A stretch of 64,000 bases of DNA, from positions 1 to 64,000 of IMG/VR virus record IMGVR_UViG_3300037294_000399; one strand, given 5' to 3'. Below the pieces are notes generated by a model. It saw nothing but the letters and a program-made list of their open reading frames with translations. It made no database searches and had not been told where the DNA came from. Below are positions 2,244-33,756 of this stretch, one piece after another. Positions within the stretch are counted from its first letter, which is position 1. Every line of letters begins with the position of its first letter. The translations under genes were made by a program, and so were the position numbers. This DNA is from a virus.

Positions 2244-2664
2244 CGCACAAGGAATCATAGTAAGTTATGATTTAGAAGCTTTAGCAAATGAAGTTAACAA
2301 TATTCAATATGATAGACAAAATTATGTTGATAACCATAGAACATCTGGTGATGGTGTTTCTCTTCATGAAGGTTCACCAATAGAAGAAGAATTCAATGAG
2401 TTAAGAACTCAATTTGCTAATGATATTCTTGGTTTAGAACCTAGATTGGAAAAATTAATAGAAGATAATTTATTCCTAACTAAAAAAGGTGTCTTGGCTA
2501 AAAACAGACGTAGACCAATCTTAACAGGTGGTAGACAGTTTTATGTAAACGTTATCGATGAATACGACCACGATTTACAATTCGACAAACCTTACCTTAA
2601 ATTGGATAGAATTGGTGACAAGAAAGGTAAACTAATTATTCACGAAATGCAAACAAATTATTAA
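2230..2664 (+). CDS. Hypothetical protein
   Basis: ORF track; ATG 2230 overlaps upstream gene end. Confidence 0.65.
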   Translation: MKTINAQGIIVSYDLEALANEVNNIQYDRQNYVDNHRTSGDGVSLHEGSPIEEEFNELRTQFANDILGLEPRLEKLIEDNLFLTKKGVLAKNRRRPILTGGRQFYVNVIDEYDHDLQFDKPYLKLDRIGDKKGKLIIHEMQTNY

Positions 2665-3290
2665 ATATGTTTCCAAGTTCGATATGTAACTATTTTAAAA
2701 ATACACGCATCTTGAACTTGGAATTTTATTGCCAAATTTTTTTGTGATGTTCCATTAACAAAATATAAATCTCGAATCATTAATACTTGTTGTTCGGTTA
2801 ATTTGGCTTTAGAATTTTTTTCACCTTTTCTTTTTTCACTCATTTTTGCTTTTGCTTTTTCAGATGCTTTTTTACCTAAATTAATATTTTTTAGTTTTAA
2901 TTTTACAGTATCAGTATGTGTCTTGCCAAACATAGGATTATTTTCACCAGAAACATCGTGATGGTTTTTACTAATATTATCTTTATGTTCCTTAGTAAAA
3001 ACAATACCTTTATTACTACAACCTAAACAACCGTCACCACCTTTTGTTATGTTATAACCTATCTTTTTATTTCTAGCATCTAATTTACTTATCCAAAATA
3101 TTTCTTTTTCATTCATATCTTTTTTATCTACACAATTTTCTAAAATTTCTTTTTTAAAATTTTCTTTACCGTATTTTTTTATAGCGTTATTTAAAGCTAA
3201 ACCAGAGCCTAAATATTTAGGGTTATTTTTCGAATCTTGACCAACATAAATTTTATTATTTATTAGATTTGTTGTTTTATAAATTATCAT
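2661..3290 (-). CDS. GIY-YIG homing endonuclease with NUMOD3 repeats
   Basis: IIYKTTNLINNKIYVG, GYNITKGGDG, NPMFGKTH. Confidence 0.9.
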   Translation of the reverse strand: MIIYKTTNLINNKIYVGQDSKNNPKYLGSGLALNNAIKKYGKENFKKEILENCVDKKDMNEKEIFWISKLDARNKKIGYNITKGGDGCLGCSNKGIVFTKEHKDNISKNHHDVSGENNPMFGKTHTDTVKLKLKNINLGKKASEKAKAKMSEKRKGEKNSKAKLTEQQVLMIRDLYFVNGTSQKNLAIKFQVQDACIFKIVTYRTWKHI

Positions 3291-3946: not shown

Positions 3947-4681
3947 ATGAAAATTAAAGACATTTTTGACGAGATTGCTGCTGAAGGTGGTACTAACCAA
4001 AAAATGGTTATTTTAGCTAAATACGCTGACAACGAATTGTTAAAACGAGTATTATATTTGGCAAACTCTAAGAGAGTTAAATTTTACATTAAACGTGTTC
4101 CAGAATACGTTGATGTTAGGAATAAAATCTCCTTGGATGACGCATTAGATGAATTATCAGTGATTAGTAATAGAACACTTACAGGTAGTGCTGCCGTGGC
4201 TCACTTAGTTGATTTATTGTCAATAACTGAACCAGAAGATGCTTATATCTTAGAACGTATCATCGAAAAAGATTGTAAAATAGGTATGGGTACCTCAAAT
4301 ATGAACAAAGTGTTCAAAAACCTTATTGAAGATACACCTTATATGGGTGCCGTATCGTTTGATGAGAAGAAAGCACGCAAGTTGTTTGAGAAAGGTGCCA
4401 AAGGTTATTCACAAGTTAAGATGGATGGTCGTTACTGCAACGCAACAATAGTTAACGGTGAAGTTTATTTGGAAAGCCGCCAAGGTGAACCAACAATCAT
4501 CACTGGTGCAAAGTTGATTGACGATTTAGCTAATTTGAATGAAGTGGTTCTTAATGGTGAATTGACCATGGATGGTTCAAAAGATATTGTATTAAAAATT
4601 GGTGAAATTATAAATATTGATGGGGTTGAGTGTAATGGAGATGAAATATTAGAAAAATTTAATAAAACCATTAAAAATTAA
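3947..4681 (+). CDS. ATP-dependent DNA ligase, N-terminal fragment
   Basis: Motif I KMDGRY, SRQG, motif III LNGEL, then a 34 aa non-ligase tail. Confidence 0.85.
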   Translation: MKIKDIFDEIAAEGGTNQKMVILAKYADNELLKRVLYLANSKRVKFYIKRVPEYVDVRNKISLDDALDELSVISNRTLTGSAAVAHLVDLLSITEPEDAYILERIIEKDCKIGMGTSNMNKVFKNLIEDTPYMGAVSFDEKKARKLFEKGAKGYSQVKMDGRYCNATIVNGEVYLESRQGEPTIITGAKLIDDLANLNEVVLNGELTMDGSKDIVLKIGEIINIDGVECNGDEILEKFNKTIKN

Positions 4682-4734
4682 ACAAGTAATCCGAACAATT
4701 AGATTTTATTAGATATTTATAATAAAAGAATATT

Positions 4735-5736
4735 ATGTATGTCTGTTATTTAATAAAATATAGTGGTGATAAACTACCAAGATTCTATATCGGGTCAACC
4801 TCATTAGATAAAATAAAAAATGGTTATCGTGGTTCAGTAGTTTCAAAAAAATATGGTAAAATTTTTAAAAATGAATTAAAAACAAACCCTCTTTTATTTG
4901 AATATGAGATATTAAGTGAACATACAACCAGAGAAGAAGCTTTAGAAGCTGAATTAATTCAGCAAAAGAAGAACAATGTTGTTAAATCAAAAGATTTTAT
5001 TAATGAATCATACGCATCTGTTAATGGAATGTTTGGTAGAGATGTTTCGGGTGAAGTGAATCCTATGTTTGGTAAAAAACATAGTGAAAAAACTAAGAAA
5101 ATACTCAGCGAAAAACGAGGTAACTTACTAAGATATAGTTTAACTGACGAACATAAATTAATTATTAGTAAAACACATAAAGGTAAAATTGTTAGTGAAG
5201 AAACAAAAAGTAAAATAAGTAATAAAAAAAATGGTACCTTTACTGCTATTGATGAATCTAGAAATTATTTTAATATTGGTAAAAATGATGAGAGGTATTT
5301 AAACGGTGAATTATCTGGTATGACTGTTGGATTTGTTGTTGTTAAAGATATTAATGGTAATAAATTATTAGTTGGTGTTAATGATGAACGTTATTTAAGT
5401 GGTGAATTAGTTCATATTAATAAAGGTAAAGTTATGAGTGATGAAACTAAGGTTAAAATATCCGAATCAAGTAAAGGTAAAATAATAAGTGAAGGGTGTC
5501 GTAAAAAAATATCCGAAGCACATAAAGGTAAAATTAAAGGTCCGTTGAGTGAGGAAATTAAAATTAAAATATCAGAAGCTAATAAAGGTAGAGTTATGAG
5601 CGAAGAAACTAAACAAAAGTTAATTATTAGTAAAACGGGGATGAAATATATTGAACGAATTTGCCCATATTGTAAAAAAGTAGGTCGGGGTGGAAATATG
5701 TTTAGGTATCATTTTGATAATTGTAAATTAAGATAA
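4735..5736 (+). CDS. GIY-YIG (Seg-like) homing endonuclease with NUMOD3 repeats inside the ligase gene
   Basis: VCYLI...FYIGS, repeated HSEKTKKI/SEETKSKIS, C-terminal CPYC. Confidence 0.85.
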   Translation: MYVCYLIKYSGDKLPRFYIGSTSLDKIKNGYRGSVVSKKYGKIFKNELKTNPLLFEYEILSEHTTREEALEAELIQQKKNNVVKSKDFINESYASVNGMFGRDVSGEVNPMFGKKHSEKTKKILSEKRGNLLRYSLTDEHKLIISKTHKGKIVSEETKSKISNKKNGTFTAIDESRNYFNIGKNDERYLNGELSGMTVGFVVVKDINGNKLLVGVNDERYLSGELVHINKGKVMSDETKVKISESSKGKIISEGCRKKISEAHKGKIKGPLSEEIKIKISEANKGRVMSEETKQKLIISKTGMKYIERICPYCKKVGRGGNMFRYHFDNCKLR

Positions 5737-5743
5737 AAATATT

Positions 5744-6583
5744 ATGGTGGAGTTTAAAAAAATTAAAAGGGTTACGAAAAATGAAGATGGTAGTGTAACA
5801 TTGACAATGGATGGTGTACCTCGTTATGAGTCTAACGGTATCATAGCATCAATCATTGATATCTGCGGGAAACGTGAGTCTAGGACTAGTGAAGAAAATA
5901 TCAAAAAAGTCTTAACTTTTGAAGACAAGCATGGTAGTTTTGAGGATGCTTTGGTTAAAATACGTTACACTGTTTGGGATATGATTACTATTGATGAGTA
6001 CAATACTACTAAATCAACTACACCATACAATGTAAGACTTAAAAATCTTTCAGAAACGTTATCAACTATCCAAAACGATAATGTTATGGTGTCAATCATT
6101 GAAAATAGAGAGGTTAATACCTTTGAAGAAGCAATGGAGCACTTCAAAGAAATGCTAGGTCGTGGTGAAGAAGGTACTATCCTTAAAGCACAAACTGGTG
6201 AGTGGAAAGATGGTAAACCAACATGGCAAATCAAACTTAAGTTGGAATTGACATTAGATTTGATGATTACTGGTTTTAATTACGGCACTAAAGGTACTAA
6301 AAATGAAAACGTTGTTAGTTCGTTTAATGCTATGACATCATGTGGTTTATTGAAAACTAGACCACAAGGATTGAAAGAAGATTTAATGAAAGAAATTACA
6401 GAAAGACAAGATGAGTTGTTAGGTACAATCATCGAAGTTAAATGTTCTGGTCTTTCATTTGACAATACTGGTGCTTATTCGTTGTTATATCCAGCGTTTA
6501 AACATTTCAGAGACGATAAGGGTGTTGCCAACTCTTTGGAAGAATGTATTGACATTCAAAATGCGGCTTTAGGTTTATCTTAA
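5744..6583 (+). CDS. ATP-dependent DNA ligase, C-terminal fragment
   Basis: Motif IIIa YTVWD, IV EGTILK, V KLK, OB domain, VI YPAFKHFRDDK. Confidence 0.85.
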   Translation: MVEFKKIKRVTKNEDGSVTLTMDGVPRYESNGIIASIIDICGKRESRTSEENIKKVLTFEDKHGSFEDALVKIRYTVWDMITIDEYNTTKSTTPYNVRLKNLSETLSTIQNDNVMVSIIENREVNTFEEAMEHFKEMLGRGEEGTILKAQTGEWKDGKPTWQIKLKLELTLDLMITGFNYGTKGTKNENVVSSFNAMTSCGLLKTRPQGLKEDLMKEITERQDELLGTIIEVKCSGLSFDNTGAYSLLYPAFKHFRDDKGVANSLEECIDIQNAALGLS

Positions 6584-7154: not shown

Positions 7155-7904
7155 ATGGAAACAAAAACCTGTAATAAATGTAACGATGAAAAAGAAATCA
7201 TTCATTTTCATAAAAAAAGTAATAACCACGATGGTTATAATACAATCTGTATTGAATGTATAAGTAAACAAAAAAAAGAGTATTACTATAATAATAAATC
7301 TCTTATAAAAGAGAGACAAAAAGATTATTCAAAGCAATATTACGTGAATAATAAGGTTGAGATAAAGGAACATCGGAATAAGTATTATTCCGAGAATAAA
7401 GATGTGTTTGCTAATTATTATATAGAAAATAGAGACAAGATTCTCGAAGACCAAAAAAAATATAGGGAAGAAAATAAAGAATCAATTAAAAAAACGAAAC
7501 AAGAGTATCTTAAGAATAATCCAGAAAAGATTGCTGATTATCGAAAGAAATACTACGATGAAAATAAAGATGCTATCTTAGCCAACAATAGAGCGTGGAA
7601 TAAGAAAAATGCTCACATTGTTGCGTGGAGAAGCGTTCTAAAAAGCCATTTAAGACGAATAGGGAAGAAAAAAGAAGGTCACACAATAGACCTACTTGGT
7701 TATTCGGCACTCGAATTGAAAGAACACATTGAAGCATTATTTGTTGACGGTATGTATTGGGATAATCATGGGGTATGGGAAATAGACCATGTAATGCCAG
7801 TAACTAGTTTTGATTCAGAAACATTACCAAATGTTGTAAATGCGTTATCTAATTTACAACCGTTATGGCGAGCAGATAACAGGAGCAAATATAATAACTA
7901 TTAA
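7155..7904 (+). CDS. HNH-family homing endonuclease
   Basis: N-terminal CxxC...CxxC, K/Y-rich helical repeats, WEIDHVMP...NLQPLW...N. Confidence 0.85.
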   Translation: METKTCNKCNDEKEIIHFHKKSNNHDGYNTICIECISKQKKEYYYNNKSLIKERQKDYSKQYYVNNKVEIKEHRNKYYSENKDVFANYYIENRDKILEDQKKYREENKESIKKTKQEYLKNNPEKIADYRKKYYDENKDAILANNRAWNKKNAHIVAWRSVLKSHLRRIGKKKEGHTIDLLGYSALELKEHIEALFVDGMYWDNHGVWEIDHVMPVTSFDSETLPNVVNALSNLQPLWRADNRSKYNNY

Positions 7905-7916
7905 AAATATACAATT

Positions 7917-8288
7917 ATGAATACAAACAAACGTATGGTTAAATTCCCGTCTATTGAACAATTTAGAACAGTTGTTTCTAACATCAATAGAGATTTTAAC
8001 TTTGTTGGTTTAGATGAAAATGGGGACGCTATTTATGACCCTAGTTTAAAAAAACCAACACTTACATTCAAAGGAACTGTGAAATTACACGGAACCAATG
8101 CTGGCGTGTCTTATAATGAGGTTGATGGTCTTTGGGCACAATCTCGTGAAAATATTATCACACCAGCAGCATCAAAATTAGTAGAAATTGAGTTTGAAGA
8201 TGGCTCAAAACAATTATTTGATGAAAACGCAATTATTAATGGTAAAGTAATTAATGATTTTAAAATAGGTGAGACTATTGTTTTATAG
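7917..8288 (+). CDS. RNA ligase (Rnl2 family), N-terminal fragment
   Basis: FPSIEQF, motif I KLHGTN, QSR, followed by a non-ligase tail. Confidence 0.8.
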   Translation: MNTNKRMVKFPSIEQFRTVVSNINRDFNFVGLDENGDAIYDPSLKKPTLTFKGTVKLHGTNAGVSYNEVDGLWAQSRENIITPAASKLVEIEFEDGSKQLFDENAIINGKVINDFKIGETIVL

Positions 8289-8497
8289 CATACCAATTTT
8301 TATATTTGTAAAAATCTTTATTGGTTAATCTAGTAATAATTCGTTTATTGGTAATGTTTTCATAAAGTTTGGTATAACATCCATATATGAATGGCAAATA
8401 GAGGAAGGGACTATATTTGAAGAAGATTATGTCAAAAACGTAGATGAATACGTATTCACTTTAGATGAATGGTTTGAAAAAAATAAAAAACATAAAA

Positions 8498-9334
8498 ATG
8501 GAAAAGAAAATAAAAAATATTAGAGAAATTAAAACATCTGACAACGCTGGTTTTGCTTTCTTTGTTGAAGCAAACAAAGAAACATTTATTGATTTGATGA
8601 ACCAAGTAAAAACTGAAACTGGTTTGGATTTAGTAACAAACACTATTAGCATTTATGGTGAGTGGTGTGGTGGAAACATCCAAAAGGGTGTTGGTATCAC
8701 CAATTTAGAAAAATCTTTCTTTATTTTTGGTGTTAAGGTAACACCACATACTGAAAATAAAGAAGAATTAACAGAAAACCCAGCGTATTGGGTTGATTAT
8801 AGTTACTTGGAAGCAAGTGATAAAAAAATATATAACATCGATAATTTCAAAACCTTTACTATCGATATCGATTTCAATATGCCACAATTGGTTCAAAACC
8901 AATTGTCTGAAATGACAATCGAGGTTGAAAATGAATGTCCAGTTGCCAAATCTTTTGGTTTCTCTGGTATTGGTGAAGGTATTGTTTGGTCATGTGGCTT
9001 TAAAGGTGTTGTTAATAGGTTCAAAGTAAAGGGTGAAAAACACTCTTCTAGTAAGGTAAAAACACTTGCCGCTGTTGATGTTGAAAAATTGGAGTCTATA
9101 CAAAAATTTGTTGACTATGCTGTAACTAAAAGTCGTTTTAACCAAGCACTTGAAAATGTTTTCCCAAATAATGAACCAATCGACACCAAAAAATTAGGTG
9201 ATGTTATCAGATGGGTGGTTAACGATGTTATCAAAGAAGAAATGGATACTATGGTTAAGAATAAACTTGAACCAAAAGAAATTAACAAATACATTTCTGT
9301 TAGCGTTAGAGATATGTTTTTTAAATTGGTTTAA
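8498..9334 (+). CDS. RNA ligase (Rnl2 family), C-terminal fragment
   Basis: DNAGFA, motif III IYGEW, IIIa FFIF, IV GEGIVW, V FKVKG. Confidence 0.8.
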   Translation: MEKKIKNIREIKTSDNAGFAFFVEANKETFIDLMNQVKTETGLDLVTNTISIYGEWCGGNIQKGVGITNLEKSFFIFGVKVTPHTENKEELTENPAYWVDYSYLEASDKKIYNIDNFKTFTIDIDFNMPQLVQNQLSEMTIEVENECPVAKSFGFSGIGEGIVWSCGFKGVVNRFKVKGEKHSSSKVKTLAAVDVEKLESIQKFVDYAVTKSRFNQALENVFPNNEPIDTKKLGDVIRWVVNDVIKEEMDTMVKNKLEPKEINKYISVSVRDMFFKLV

Positions 9335-9430
9335 GATGGGTGTGAATGGTATTATTATTATCGTATTAATAGTTGCCGCTATCACATCGGTAATAATAAA
9401 AGAAGTTGATAAAAACAAAAATAAAAAGTT

Positions 9431-13700: not shown

Positions 13701-13995
13701 ATATTTTGTTTATTATAAATATCTAATATTTTAAGGAAAGTAGAGTTTGGTGGTTAAAAATTTGTTTTATTGTAAAATAATTAGTACCTTTGTTAAAACA
13801 AATATAAATTATCGTGAGAAAAGTATTAGTTAATAAAATAATTAAAAAATTAAAACTAGCTCATGTGGGTATAAAAAATTATGAATGTAAATCGTTTGAA
13901 TGTTCATTAGATAAATTTTCTTATGAGATACTTAAAGATATTGTTTTGGTTAGATTAGAAGAATTAATAAAGAATCCAAATTTAAAAAGATAATT

Positions 13996-18709: not shown

Positions 18710-18789
18710 CAGATAACTTTTTGTAGAACATAATACAAAGTTTTTAGAGCTTTTAGATATAATTAGATATTTATATAAAAACGTAAATT

Positions 18790-33260: not shown

Positions 33261-33756
33261 CAATTAGTTGATAATCAAGTCACTAAACTATATTTTGCAC
33301 AATAAAGTAGATTGGTTTATTGTGCAATTTTTGCTTTATTATAATACTATTTGGTCTGTATTTTTTATTAATATTTCATATATTTATAATAAAACAACAA
33401 TGTGAAAGACTTACTGAAAGTGTTACTTAGAGAGAACATATTAACTGAGATTGATTGGAATGAAAAATACAAAGATGTTTCTAAACAACCAACGAAAAAG
33501 GTAAAGTTGTGTTCATCAACGGTAAAAATGGCGCTAACGAATTAAAAAATCGTTTAGGTAAACTTTACAATGTTGAACCTTCTACTATATTAACTTATGA
33601 TGAAATGTTAAGTATGCCAGAAGGTGAACCATTATCATATAATGTTATCGTAAATCCTAAAGGTGATGGCGATAGAGGAGCACAAAGAAATGATATTAAA
33701 ACTAGTTTCTTATTGTTTCATTAAAAAAAAAATACTATGGATATTAAAAAAAAAAA

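What the first reader, a model, noticed from the sequence alone, without database searches (positions are those of the whole stretch)
3947..6583. DNA ligase split at motif III with a 16-bp direct repeat and a permuted small domain on the new ends
Seen: attgaccatggatggt (4561-4576) and attgacaatggatggt (5800-5815), both encoding LTMDG, flank the insert. Joining at the repeat gives an intact ligase (NGELTMDG-VPRYESNG). The leftover pieces join the other way into a coherent 58-aa protein, MVEFKKIKRVTKNEDGSVTLTMDG-SKDIVLKIGEIINIDG... No group I elements and no intein C-terminal His-Asn are present. Established: Aeh1 nrdA split by mobE works as two assembled polypeptides. Inference: the added tail and leader fold together as a clasp that rejoins the halves, or the repeat allows excision or RNA-level rejoining.
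Basis: partly seen in the sequence, partly recalled or inferred. Interest (0 to 1): 0.78.

Follow-up and report, generated by a model that had tools for sequence, protein, structure and literature searches.

The report
Two-piece phage ligase with endonuclease-borne tails
A phage DNA ligase gene is cut in two by a mobile endonuclease cassette that carries two short conserved peptides, fused to the broken ends, which probably let the enzyme work as two chains; one such case is known for another phage enzyme.

Summary
A T4-type ATP-dependent DNA ligase is split just after motif III into a 244-aa N-half (3947-4681) and a 279-aa C-half (5744-6583). A 333-aa GIY-YIG/NUMOD3 homing endonuclease gene (4735-5736) lies between them. 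The 1239-bp insert is bounded by a 16-bp direct repeat, and about 200 intact relatives are colinear with a join at that repeat.

New here:
- The 34-aa tail and the roughly 20-aa leader are conserved. At least 37 diverged split N-halves carry the same tail motif at 28-41 aa, and eight C-halves share one leader motif.
- Tail, endonuclease and leader move as one unit. The block is 99.5% identical between two ligase alleles whose flanks are about 88% identical.
- On the ligase tree the split state needs at least 12 well-supported gains or losses.
- Tail and leader persist where the endonuclease is lost or decayed.
- AlphaFold2 predicts both as ordered beta-hairpins beside the motif III strand.
- No intron, no intein residues and no fused form were found.

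Most likely this is a non-covalent two-piece ligase whose cassette-borne peptides help assembly, as in Aeh1 NrdA (Crona 2011). The "permuted domain" and any intein descent are not statistically supported. This scan noted the same layout earlier on other DNA (e1-5375031, e1-5375055).

The parts
3947..4576 (+). Ligase N-half core: DNA-binding domain and first part of the adenylation domain. Motif I lysine K158 is at 4418-4420; motif III N-G-E is at 4553-4561.
   Evidence: K158, D160, G161 and E205 invariant in 37 split N-halves. The read-through AF2 model of a homologue matches T4 ligase 6dt1 at Z 26.2.
4561..4576 (+). Left copy of the 16-bp direct repeat, encoding the last residues of the motif III strand (L-T-M-D-G).
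4577..4681 (+). Cassette-borne tail: 34 codons plus stop, fused in frame to the N-half. Predicted as strand, hairpin and short helix.
   Evidence: Absent from intact relatives. Conserved motif in 37 N-halves with lengths 28-41 aa. Lies inside the 99.5%-identity mobile block. pLDDT 77-85 in the homologous model.
4709..4728 (+). Promoter-like 20-mer just upstream of the endonuclease gene, shared with other endonuclease cassettes in the window.
   Evidence: 4 matches against 0.1 expected. Function is inferred only.
4735..5736 (+). Free-standing GIY-YIG / NUMOD3 homing endonuclease gene (333 aa) with a C-terminal Cys/His cluster.
   Evidence: NUMOD3 E 9e-20; GIY-YIG weak. It is 99% identical in a second phage whose ligase halves are only 85% and 92% identical. 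A 60% identical homologue occupies the same site in L109.
5744..5799 (+). Cassette-borne leader: start codon plus 18 codons, predicted as a beta-hairpin, fused in frame to the C-half. The start lies 7 nt after the endonuclease stop.
   Evidence: Absent from intact relatives. Shared motif in eight C-halves. pLDDT 70-83 in the homologous model.
5800..5815 (+). Right copy of the direct repeat (one mismatch), encoding a second L-T-M-D-G.
   Evidence: It is a perfect 16/16 repeat in L071.
5816..6583 (+). Ligase C-half core: rest of the adenylation domain (motif IV E-G-T-I-L-K, motif V W-Q-I-K-L-K) and the OB domain.
   Evidence: (PF01068 E 5e-9).

Best explanation
A mobile cassette sits in the ligase gene at the end of the motif III strand. 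The cassette consists of a tail-coding segment, a GIY-YIG homing endonuclease gene with its own promoter-like element, and a leader-coding segment.

The phage therefore makes the ligase as two polypeptides: N-half plus tail, and leader plus C-half. These assemble non-covalently into a T4-type ligase.

The tail and leader are part of the mobile element, not of the ligase. They are small ordered beta-rich peptides. They most likely dock next to the motif III strand, and probably on each other, so that the two parts of the adenylation domain are held together. That makes the insertion harmless and lets the cassette spread by homing.

Shown:
- the anatomy of the locus;
- that the cassette moves as a unit;
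- conservation of both peptides;
- their retention after endonuclease loss;
- intact catalytic motifs in both halves.

Inferred: separate translation, non-covalent assembly, and the docking role of the peptides.
For: 1. Empty and filled sites. About 200 intact relatives join exactly at the repeat.

2. The mobile unit. Window and L071 differ at 6 of about 1260 positions across 4547-5805, but are about 88% identical on both flanks. On a tree of the N-core (37 split and 78 intact alleles) the split state needs 23 changes, at least 12 of them forced by well-supported branches. Split alleles sit next to intact sisters at very short distances, and one tail type occurs in several ligase clades.

3. 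Constraint on the peptides.
- 37 N-halves at 49-85% identity all keep a tail of 28-41 aa in AT-rich DNA.
- Several tail columns are near-invariant, for example D 34/37, G 33/37, E/D 35/37, F/Y 33/37.
- Eight leaders share one motif.
- Third codon positions vary most, and dN/dS is mostly below 1.

4. Persistence without the endonuclease.
- L149 has only a 69-nt spacer with three stop codons between the halves.
- L201 and L227 have frameshifted endonuclease genes.
- L212 has lost the endonuclease gene.
- All four keep the tail and leader.

5. Ligase motifs I, III, IV and V are kept in the split forms.

6. AlphaFold2 on the natural read-through of L149 gave mean pLDDT 89.3 and pTM 0.78. The tail scored 77-85, the leader 70-83 and the spacer 31-38. 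The first tail strand forms a hairpin with the motif III strand. The fold matches T4 ligase.

7. Precedent. In phage Aeh1, tails that came with mobE are essential for the split NrdA (PMC3045599).
Against: - No direct evidence that tail and leader touch. The tools gave no coordinates or two-chain prediction.
- The isolated tail-spacer-leader model is of low confidence (pLDDT 48.6, pTM 0.36).
- Tails are less conserved than the core (36% against 58% pairwise identity), and the dN/dS estimates are noisy.
- There is no clear charge complementarity (tail mean -1.7; leaders -1 to +2), unlike Aeh1.
- In Aeh1 the tails were not needed for pairing of the fragments but for a later dimerisation step, so 'clasp' may be the wrong picture.
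- One split relative (L212) has a broken C-half, so not every split ligase is functional.
- No expression data: no RNA run holds the stretch.
Confidence: 0.6

Rival explanations
1. The tail and leader are needed by each half on its own and do not bind each other. They would cap the beta-sheet edge and hydrophobic surface exposed by the cut, or aid folding and solubility. The halves would then associate through the native ligase interface.
For: The first tail strand is predicted to pair with the N-half's own motif III strand. In Aeh1 the fragments paired without their tails. There is no charge complementarity.
Against: Tail and leader always occur together and are inherited together. The weak structural matches of the isolated model span both peptides as one compact unit.
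Confidence: 0.2
2. Function is supplied by a subpopulation of genomes, or by copies in the replicating pool, in which recombination between the 16-bp repeats has excised the cassette precisely and restored an intact ligase gene. The two-piece form itself would be inactive.
For: There is a perfect or near-perfect 16-17-bp in-frame repeat. The tree requires many gains or losses, and intact sisters lie very close to split alleles.
Against: In L149 and L227 the repeat has eroded to chance level, yet both halves, tail and leader stay open. Tails would then be under no protein-level constraint, contrary. No contig in three metagenome runs joins across the cassette, though contigs cannot show rare variants.
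Confidence: 0.07
3. The split ligase is a decaying pseudogene. Tail and leader are chance read-through and a chance upstream start.
For: L212 has a deletion/frameshift in its C-half. The phage also carries RNA ligases, and the host has its own ligase.
Against: Tail length and motif are uniform in 37 diverged lineages in AT-rich DNA. Catalytic motifs are invariant in the split forms. Both halves are kept after endonuclease loss.
Confidence: 0.05
4. The halves are rejoined covalently or co-translationally, by protein trans-splicing with a tiny intein, by RNA splicing, or by ribosomal bypass between the repeated G-G-T codons.
For: The layout (N-half, endonuclease, C-half) is that of 'fractured genes' with split inteins (PMC2677866). 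A real split intein occurs in the RNA ligase of related phages. The best weak structural matches of the isolated model are inteins.
Against: No conserved Cys/Ser/Thr at the tail start, where the position is S/P/D/E/G. No block B. No terminal His-Asn, and valine stands at +1. The two peptides total about 55 aa against at least 120 for a Hint domain. No Rfam intron match. The gap of 1239 nt is far beyond known bypass distances, and no stop follows the take-off codon.
Confidence: 0.03

Closest known systems
Aeromonas phage Aeh1 nrdA-a / mobE / nrdA-b (Friedrich et al. 2007; Crona et al. 2011, PMC3045599)
   Same: An essential DNA-metabolism enzyme gene is cut inside its catalytic core by a free-standing homing endonuclease gene. 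Unique C- and N-terminal tails, absent from intact homologues and thought to have arrived with the endonuclease, sit on the two fragments. There is no RNA or protein splicing. In Aeh1 the tails were shown to be essential for activity.
   Different: - The enzyme is a monomeric DNA ligase, not a tetrameric RNR subunit.
- The endonuclease is GIY-YIG/NUMOD3, not HNH.
- The Aeh1 tails are oppositely charged, gave no database matches and are known from one phage.
- Here the tail and leader form a sequence family found in dozens of phages, are shown to move with the endonuclease, and survive its loss.
- Function here is untested.
'Fractured genes' with split inteins and a free-standing endonuclease gene (Dassa et al. 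2009, PMC2677866), including one DNA ligase locus and the intein-less SbcD-like locus
   Same: Same gene order: N-part, endonuclease gene, C-part starting next to the endonuclease stop. Phage DNA-metabolism genes, with GIY-YIG among the endonuclease types. The intein-less SbcD-like case has 25-aa and 9-aa extensions at the break.
   Different: The reported ligase locus carries a real split intein. Here all splicing residues and most of the Hint domain are absent. The SbcD extensions were noted but not analysed for conservation or mobility.
T4 gene 39 / mobA / gene 60 topoisomerase split
   Same: An endonuclease-associated split of a phage enzyme with tail-like extensions, as noted by Crona et al..
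   Different: The T4 element also uses a 50-nt translational bypass. Nothing comparable is present here.

Membership tests
Endonuclease-fragmented gene with element-borne tails (Aeh1 NrdA type) | Gene interrupted by a free-standing homing endonuclease gene, giving two ORFs | tested here: met
Endonuclease-fragmented gene with element-borne tails (Aeh1 NrdA type) | C- and N-terminal extensions absent from uninterrupted homologues | tested here: met
   There is also no profile similarity to ligase segments.
Endonuclease-fragmented gene with element-borne tails (Aeh1 NrdA type) | Extensions arrived with the mobile element | tested here: met
   The identity block 4547-5805 covers tail, endonuclease and leader. 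The same tail type occurs in several ligase clades that have intact sisters.
Endonuclease-fragmented gene with element-borne tails (Aeh1 NrdA type) | Tails present in the mature proteins and required for activity | not testable with these tools
   Needs protein work. Only conservation and predicted order are available.
Split intein ('fractured gene' sensu Dassa 2009) | Conserved Cys/Ser/Thr as first residue of the N-part, and block B (T-x-x-H) | tested here: not met
   The position after the ligase sequence varies (S 15, P 8, D 5, E 4 of 37). The tail is only about 34 aa and has no T-x-x-H.
Split intein ('fractured gene' sensu Dassa 2009) | C-part ending in (His-)Asn followed by Cys/Ser/Thr | tested here: not met
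   Leaders end in the repeated L-T-M-x-G, followed by V/I/L.
Split intein ('fractured gene' sensu Dassa 2009) | Hint fold | tested here: inconclusive
   The low-confidence isolated model has its best, weak matches to inteins (Z 3.9, 3.8, 3.7, with 59-61 residues at about 3 A). Foldseek finds none. Profile searches of PDB sequences find none. Pairwise scores against a real split intein from related phages are not above shuffles (p 0.09-0.46).
Group I / II intron carrying an endonuclease ORF | Match to an intron covariance model; flanks not under protein-level constraint | tested here: not met
   No intron family matches at E up to 10 in 4400-6000. Tail and leader are conserved as protein.
GIY-YIG homing endonucleases (Seg-like, with NUMOD3) | N-terminal GIY-YIG domain plus NUMOD3 DNA-binding repeats; evidence of mobility | tested here: met
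   NUMOD3 matches at E 9e-20. The GIY-YIG match is below Pfam's cut-off (E 0.0095). The gene is 99% identical across two diverged ligase backgrounds. Cleavage activity was not tested.
ATP-dependent DNA ligase, T4 type | Motifs I, III, IV and V plus an OB domain and an N-terminal DNA-binding domain | tested here: met
   The read-through model of a homologue aligns to 6dt1 at Z 26.2 over 427 residues.

The most novel reading that the evidence does not exclude
The tail and leader are a portable docking module: a shrunken, splicing-dead remnant of a split intein that homing-endonuclease cassettes carry with them. The cassette would then bring its own non-covalent 'antidote' to any gene it breaks.

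The same strategy, with site-specific peptide pairs, recurs at several other break points in this phage group. There are two sites in the RNA ligase, one of them in this window. Real split inteins at a further site would represent the ancestral state.
Probability: 0.25. Interest if true: 0.8.

Novelty: new variant of a known kind. Interest (0 to 1): 0.58.

Why it matters
Crona et al. proposed in 2011 that element-borne tails may be a general third way, besides introns and inteins, to neutralise gene fragmentation. They had one phage and tails with no database matches.

This ligase cassette gives that idea an evolutionary data set:
- dozens of diverged copies;
- filled and empty sites;
- copies with live, decayed and lost endonucleases;
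- a conserved peptide pair whose role can be tested directly on a simple monomeric enzyme with an easy assay.

If the peptides prove to be a self-sufficient docking pair, they could also be useful as small split-protein tags.

Tried and rejected
- **Group I/II intron:** the Rfam E-value scan of 4400-6000 gave only three chance-level hits, none an intron.
- **Origin of tail or leader by duplication of neighbouring ligase sequence:** hhalign against an intact-ligase profile gave E 0.2 and 0.11, and at the wrong places. Rejected beyond the five repeated residues.
- **Similarity between the DNA-ligase appendages, the RNA-ligase appendages and a real split intein (L115):** Smith-Waterman scores were not above composition-matched shuffles (p 0.08-0.49). 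The shared K-K-I-K, E-D-G-S and K-I-G-E words are not significant.
- **Pfam on 37 N-halves:** nothing consistent in the tail.
- **PDB profile searches with tail and leader:** only chance hairpin matches such as a cupin.
- **ESM Atlas on a tail:** scores under 0.9, ligase fragments only.
- **Fused forms (tail and leader inside one long ligase):** none among proteins of 428-2000 aa. This is weak evidence.
- **Endonuclease relatives elsewhere (L147, L148):** they are intergenic, with no tails.
- **Sequencing runs:** no RNA holder was listed. Contigs of three salt-lake runs carry the cassette, and none joins across it. Contigs cannot show rare forms.
- **MAFFT could not combine N-halves with intact ligases**, so the full-length fold used a shallow alignment for tail and leader.
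Full report
**Observation**

The region holds three ORFs on the + strand:
- 3947-4681, 244 aa from the ATG at 3947;
- 4735-5736, 333 aa;
- 5744-6583, 279 aa.

Pfam puts the ligase N-terminal domain and the first part of the adenylation domain on the first ORF. The rest of the adenylation domain is on the third. NUMOD3 (E 9e-20) and a weak GIY-YIG match are on the middle ORF.

The 16-mer at 4561-4576 recurs once, at 5800-5815, with one mismatch. No shuffle of the window gave any match. The copies are 1239 bp apart, so the two halves are in one frame.

The window is part of a 96-kb viral metagenome record. Its nearest cultured relatives are Cellulophaga phages phi17:2 and phi4:1, whose intact ligase is about 52% identical.

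**The join at the repeat is the native gene**

The intact phi17:2 ligase aligns without indels to N residues 1-210 followed by C residues 25-279.

Among loci fetched from viral contigs, 206 have an intact ligase. In these the matches to the two halves typically overlap by just the five repeated residues.

The closest intact allele (L070/L006) is 92-95% identical on both sides and shows the empty site. The window has exactly 1239 extra bases.

The tail (34 aa after L-T-M-D-G) and the leader (19 aa before the second L-T-M-D-G) are therefore extra.

**The extras are a conserved family**

A length-restricted protein search returned dozens of 240-250-aa proteins that cover the whole N-half at 49-85% identity. 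All carry a tail of 28-41 aa with one motif. Several of its columns are near-invariant: D 34/37, G 33/37, E/D 35/37, I/V 35/37, Y 29/37, F/Y 33/37.

Pairwise identity is 36% in the tail against 58% in the core. In AT-rich DNA an unconstrained extension would not stay open at one length in 37 lineages.

Eight C-halves share a leader motif: a lysine-rich strand, an N-[D/E]-D-G-S turn, and a second strand running into the repeated L-T-M.

Codon analysis on five loci shows the third position varying most, with dN/dS mostly below 1. The estimates are noisy.

**Tail, endonuclease and leader move together**

The window and L071 are another phage pair from salt-lake samples. They differ at 6 positions between 4547 and 5805, but at roughly one position in eight to ten on either flank. 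The endonuclease protein is 99% identical, while the ligase halves are 85% and 92% identical.

A tree of the N-core with 37 split and 78 intact alleles needs 23 changes of state. At least 12 of these are forced by well-supported branches. Split alleles often lie next to an intact sister at very short distance, and one tail type appears in several ligase clades.

This is the pattern of repeated homing, or of precise loss. It shows that the peptides belong to the element.

**The split outlives the endonuclease**

- L109 has a 60% identical endonuclease at the same site.
- In L201 and L227 the endonuclease gene is frameshifted.
- In L212 it is gone, though two small ORFs remain.
- In L149 only a 69-nt spacer with three in-frame TAA codons separates the N-half stop from the C-half start.

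All four keep tail and leader.

The DNA repeat is 16-17 bp where the endonuclease is intact and recently mobile. It is 12 bp in L109, 10 bp in L212, and at chance level in L149 and L227. The repeat is thus not needed to keep the two-piece gene.

L212 also has a deletion/frameshift at motif V, so some split copies do decay.

**Structure**

The L149 read-through is a natural single chain once its three TAA codons are read as glycine. Folded with an alignment of intact and split ligases, it gave mean pLDDT 89.3 and pTM 0.78. Regional pLDDT values were:
- tail 77-85;
- leader 70-83;
- spacer 31-38.

The motif III strand (201-209) runs straight into the first tail strand (212-217) as a hairpin. A small hairpin and a helix follow. 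The leader is a 6+6-residue hairpin that leads into the ligase helix.

The model aligns to T4 ligase 6dt1 at Z 26.2 over 427 residues, rmsd 9.7 A.

The isolated tail-spacer-leader piece folded poorly (pLDDT 48.6, pTM 0.36) but with the same strands. Its best matches in an all-against-representatives search are inteins: 1dq3 Z 3.9, 5bkh 3.8, 2cw8 3.7, 8ubs 3.5, each spanning both peptides. These scores are below the tool's noise level, and Foldseek finds nothing.

The tools gave no coordinates, so tail-leader contact is inferred, not seen.

**What it is not**

- No intron model matches.
- No conserved nucleophile, no T-x-x-H, no terminal His-Asn and no Cys/Ser/Thr at +1.
- The two peptides together are about 55 aa.
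- Neither peptide is detectably derived from neighbouring ligase sequence.
- The permuted 58-aa ORF is in frame by construction. It could not be tested further.
- No fused form was found.

**Comparison with what is known**

In phage Aeh1, mobE splits nrdA. [quoted passage not shown] The authors suggested that the tails came with the element, might be intein remnants, and might be overlooked elsewhere (PMC3045599).

Dassa et al. described fractured genes with split inteins, including one ligase. They also described an intein-less SbcD-like gene with 25-aa and 9-aa extensions (PMC2677866).

The present locus fits this kind, with these differences:
- the host gene is different;
- the endonuclease family is different;
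- the enzyme is monomeric;
- the peptide pair is a conserved, demonstrably mobile sequence family.

Earlier notes of this scan report the same ligase layout in other genomes. I treat those as leads only.

**Verdict**

The most likely reading is a two-piece, non-covalently assembled ligase whose cassette-borne peptides aid assembly. I put the anatomy and the mobility of the unit at about 0.85, and the docking role at about 0.55-0.6. Intein descent of the peptides is possible but unsupported by statistics (about 0.25).

Noticed in passing
window 7917-8288 and 8465-9334: An Rnl2-like RNA ligase is also in two pieces: a 123-aa N-part with a 37-aa tail and a 289-aa C-part with a leader of about 25 aa. 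Only 176 nt lie between them, and there is no endonuclease gene. Most relatives have the gene intact and colinear. L102/L104 and L096 keep the same tail and leader with an insert of about 0.9-1.2 kb.
   Followed up: partly
L114, L115, L118 (L115:7005-7475 and 8344-9348): In related phages the RNA ligase is cut at motif I by a bona fide split intein. The N-part starts with Cys and has a T-x-x-H-type block; the C-part ends in His-Asn followed by Ser. A Vsr-like endonuclease ORF lies between the parts, which is the 'fractured gene' layout of Dassa 2009.
   Followed up: partly
L094, L096, L112, L226 (e.g. L094:5885-6739 and 7744-8226): There is a third break point in the RNA ligase, just before the G-E-G-I-V-W motif. 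It has a different conserved pair: a tail of about 56 aa and a leader of about 30 aa, with about 1 kb between the parts. L096 is split at two sites, giving three pieces.
   Followed up: no
window 4709-4728, 13707-13726 (-), 18763-18782, 33376-33395: A shared AT-rich 20-mer lies upstream of the ligase endonuclease gene and recurs at three more sites in the window (4 matches against 0.1 expected). It is possibly a common promoter of the endonuclease cassettes.
   Followed up: no
window 2661-3290 (-) and 7155-7904 (+): There is a second GIY-YIG/NUMOD3 endonuclease gene upstream of the HD-domain gene. A 249-aa ORF with no Pfam match (possibly an endonuclease) lies between the DNA and RNA ligase genes. 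The neighbourhood is crowded with endonuclease genes.
   Followed up: no
L212:1910-2679: The C-half of this split ligase stops after W-Q-I-K. It resumes in another frame about 25 residues later, losing part of motif V. This is either a decaying copy or an assembly error.
   Followed up: no
L013:2922-4188: A ligase of the intact type has a frame break and a small deletion right at motif III, the cassette's target site.
   Followed up: no
L052:2877-3221; L011:5892-6026; L007:7869-8195: Extra partial copies of the ligase or RNA-ligase C-terminal parts lie a few kb downstream of the full genes. This suggests further rearrangements around these genes.
   Followed up: no
window 4770-4944 (run X4): An estuary metagenome holds a 175-nt contig identical to part of the endonuclease gene. 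The other holders of the stretch are salt-lake samples. The share is small, so this is a lead only.
   Followed up: no
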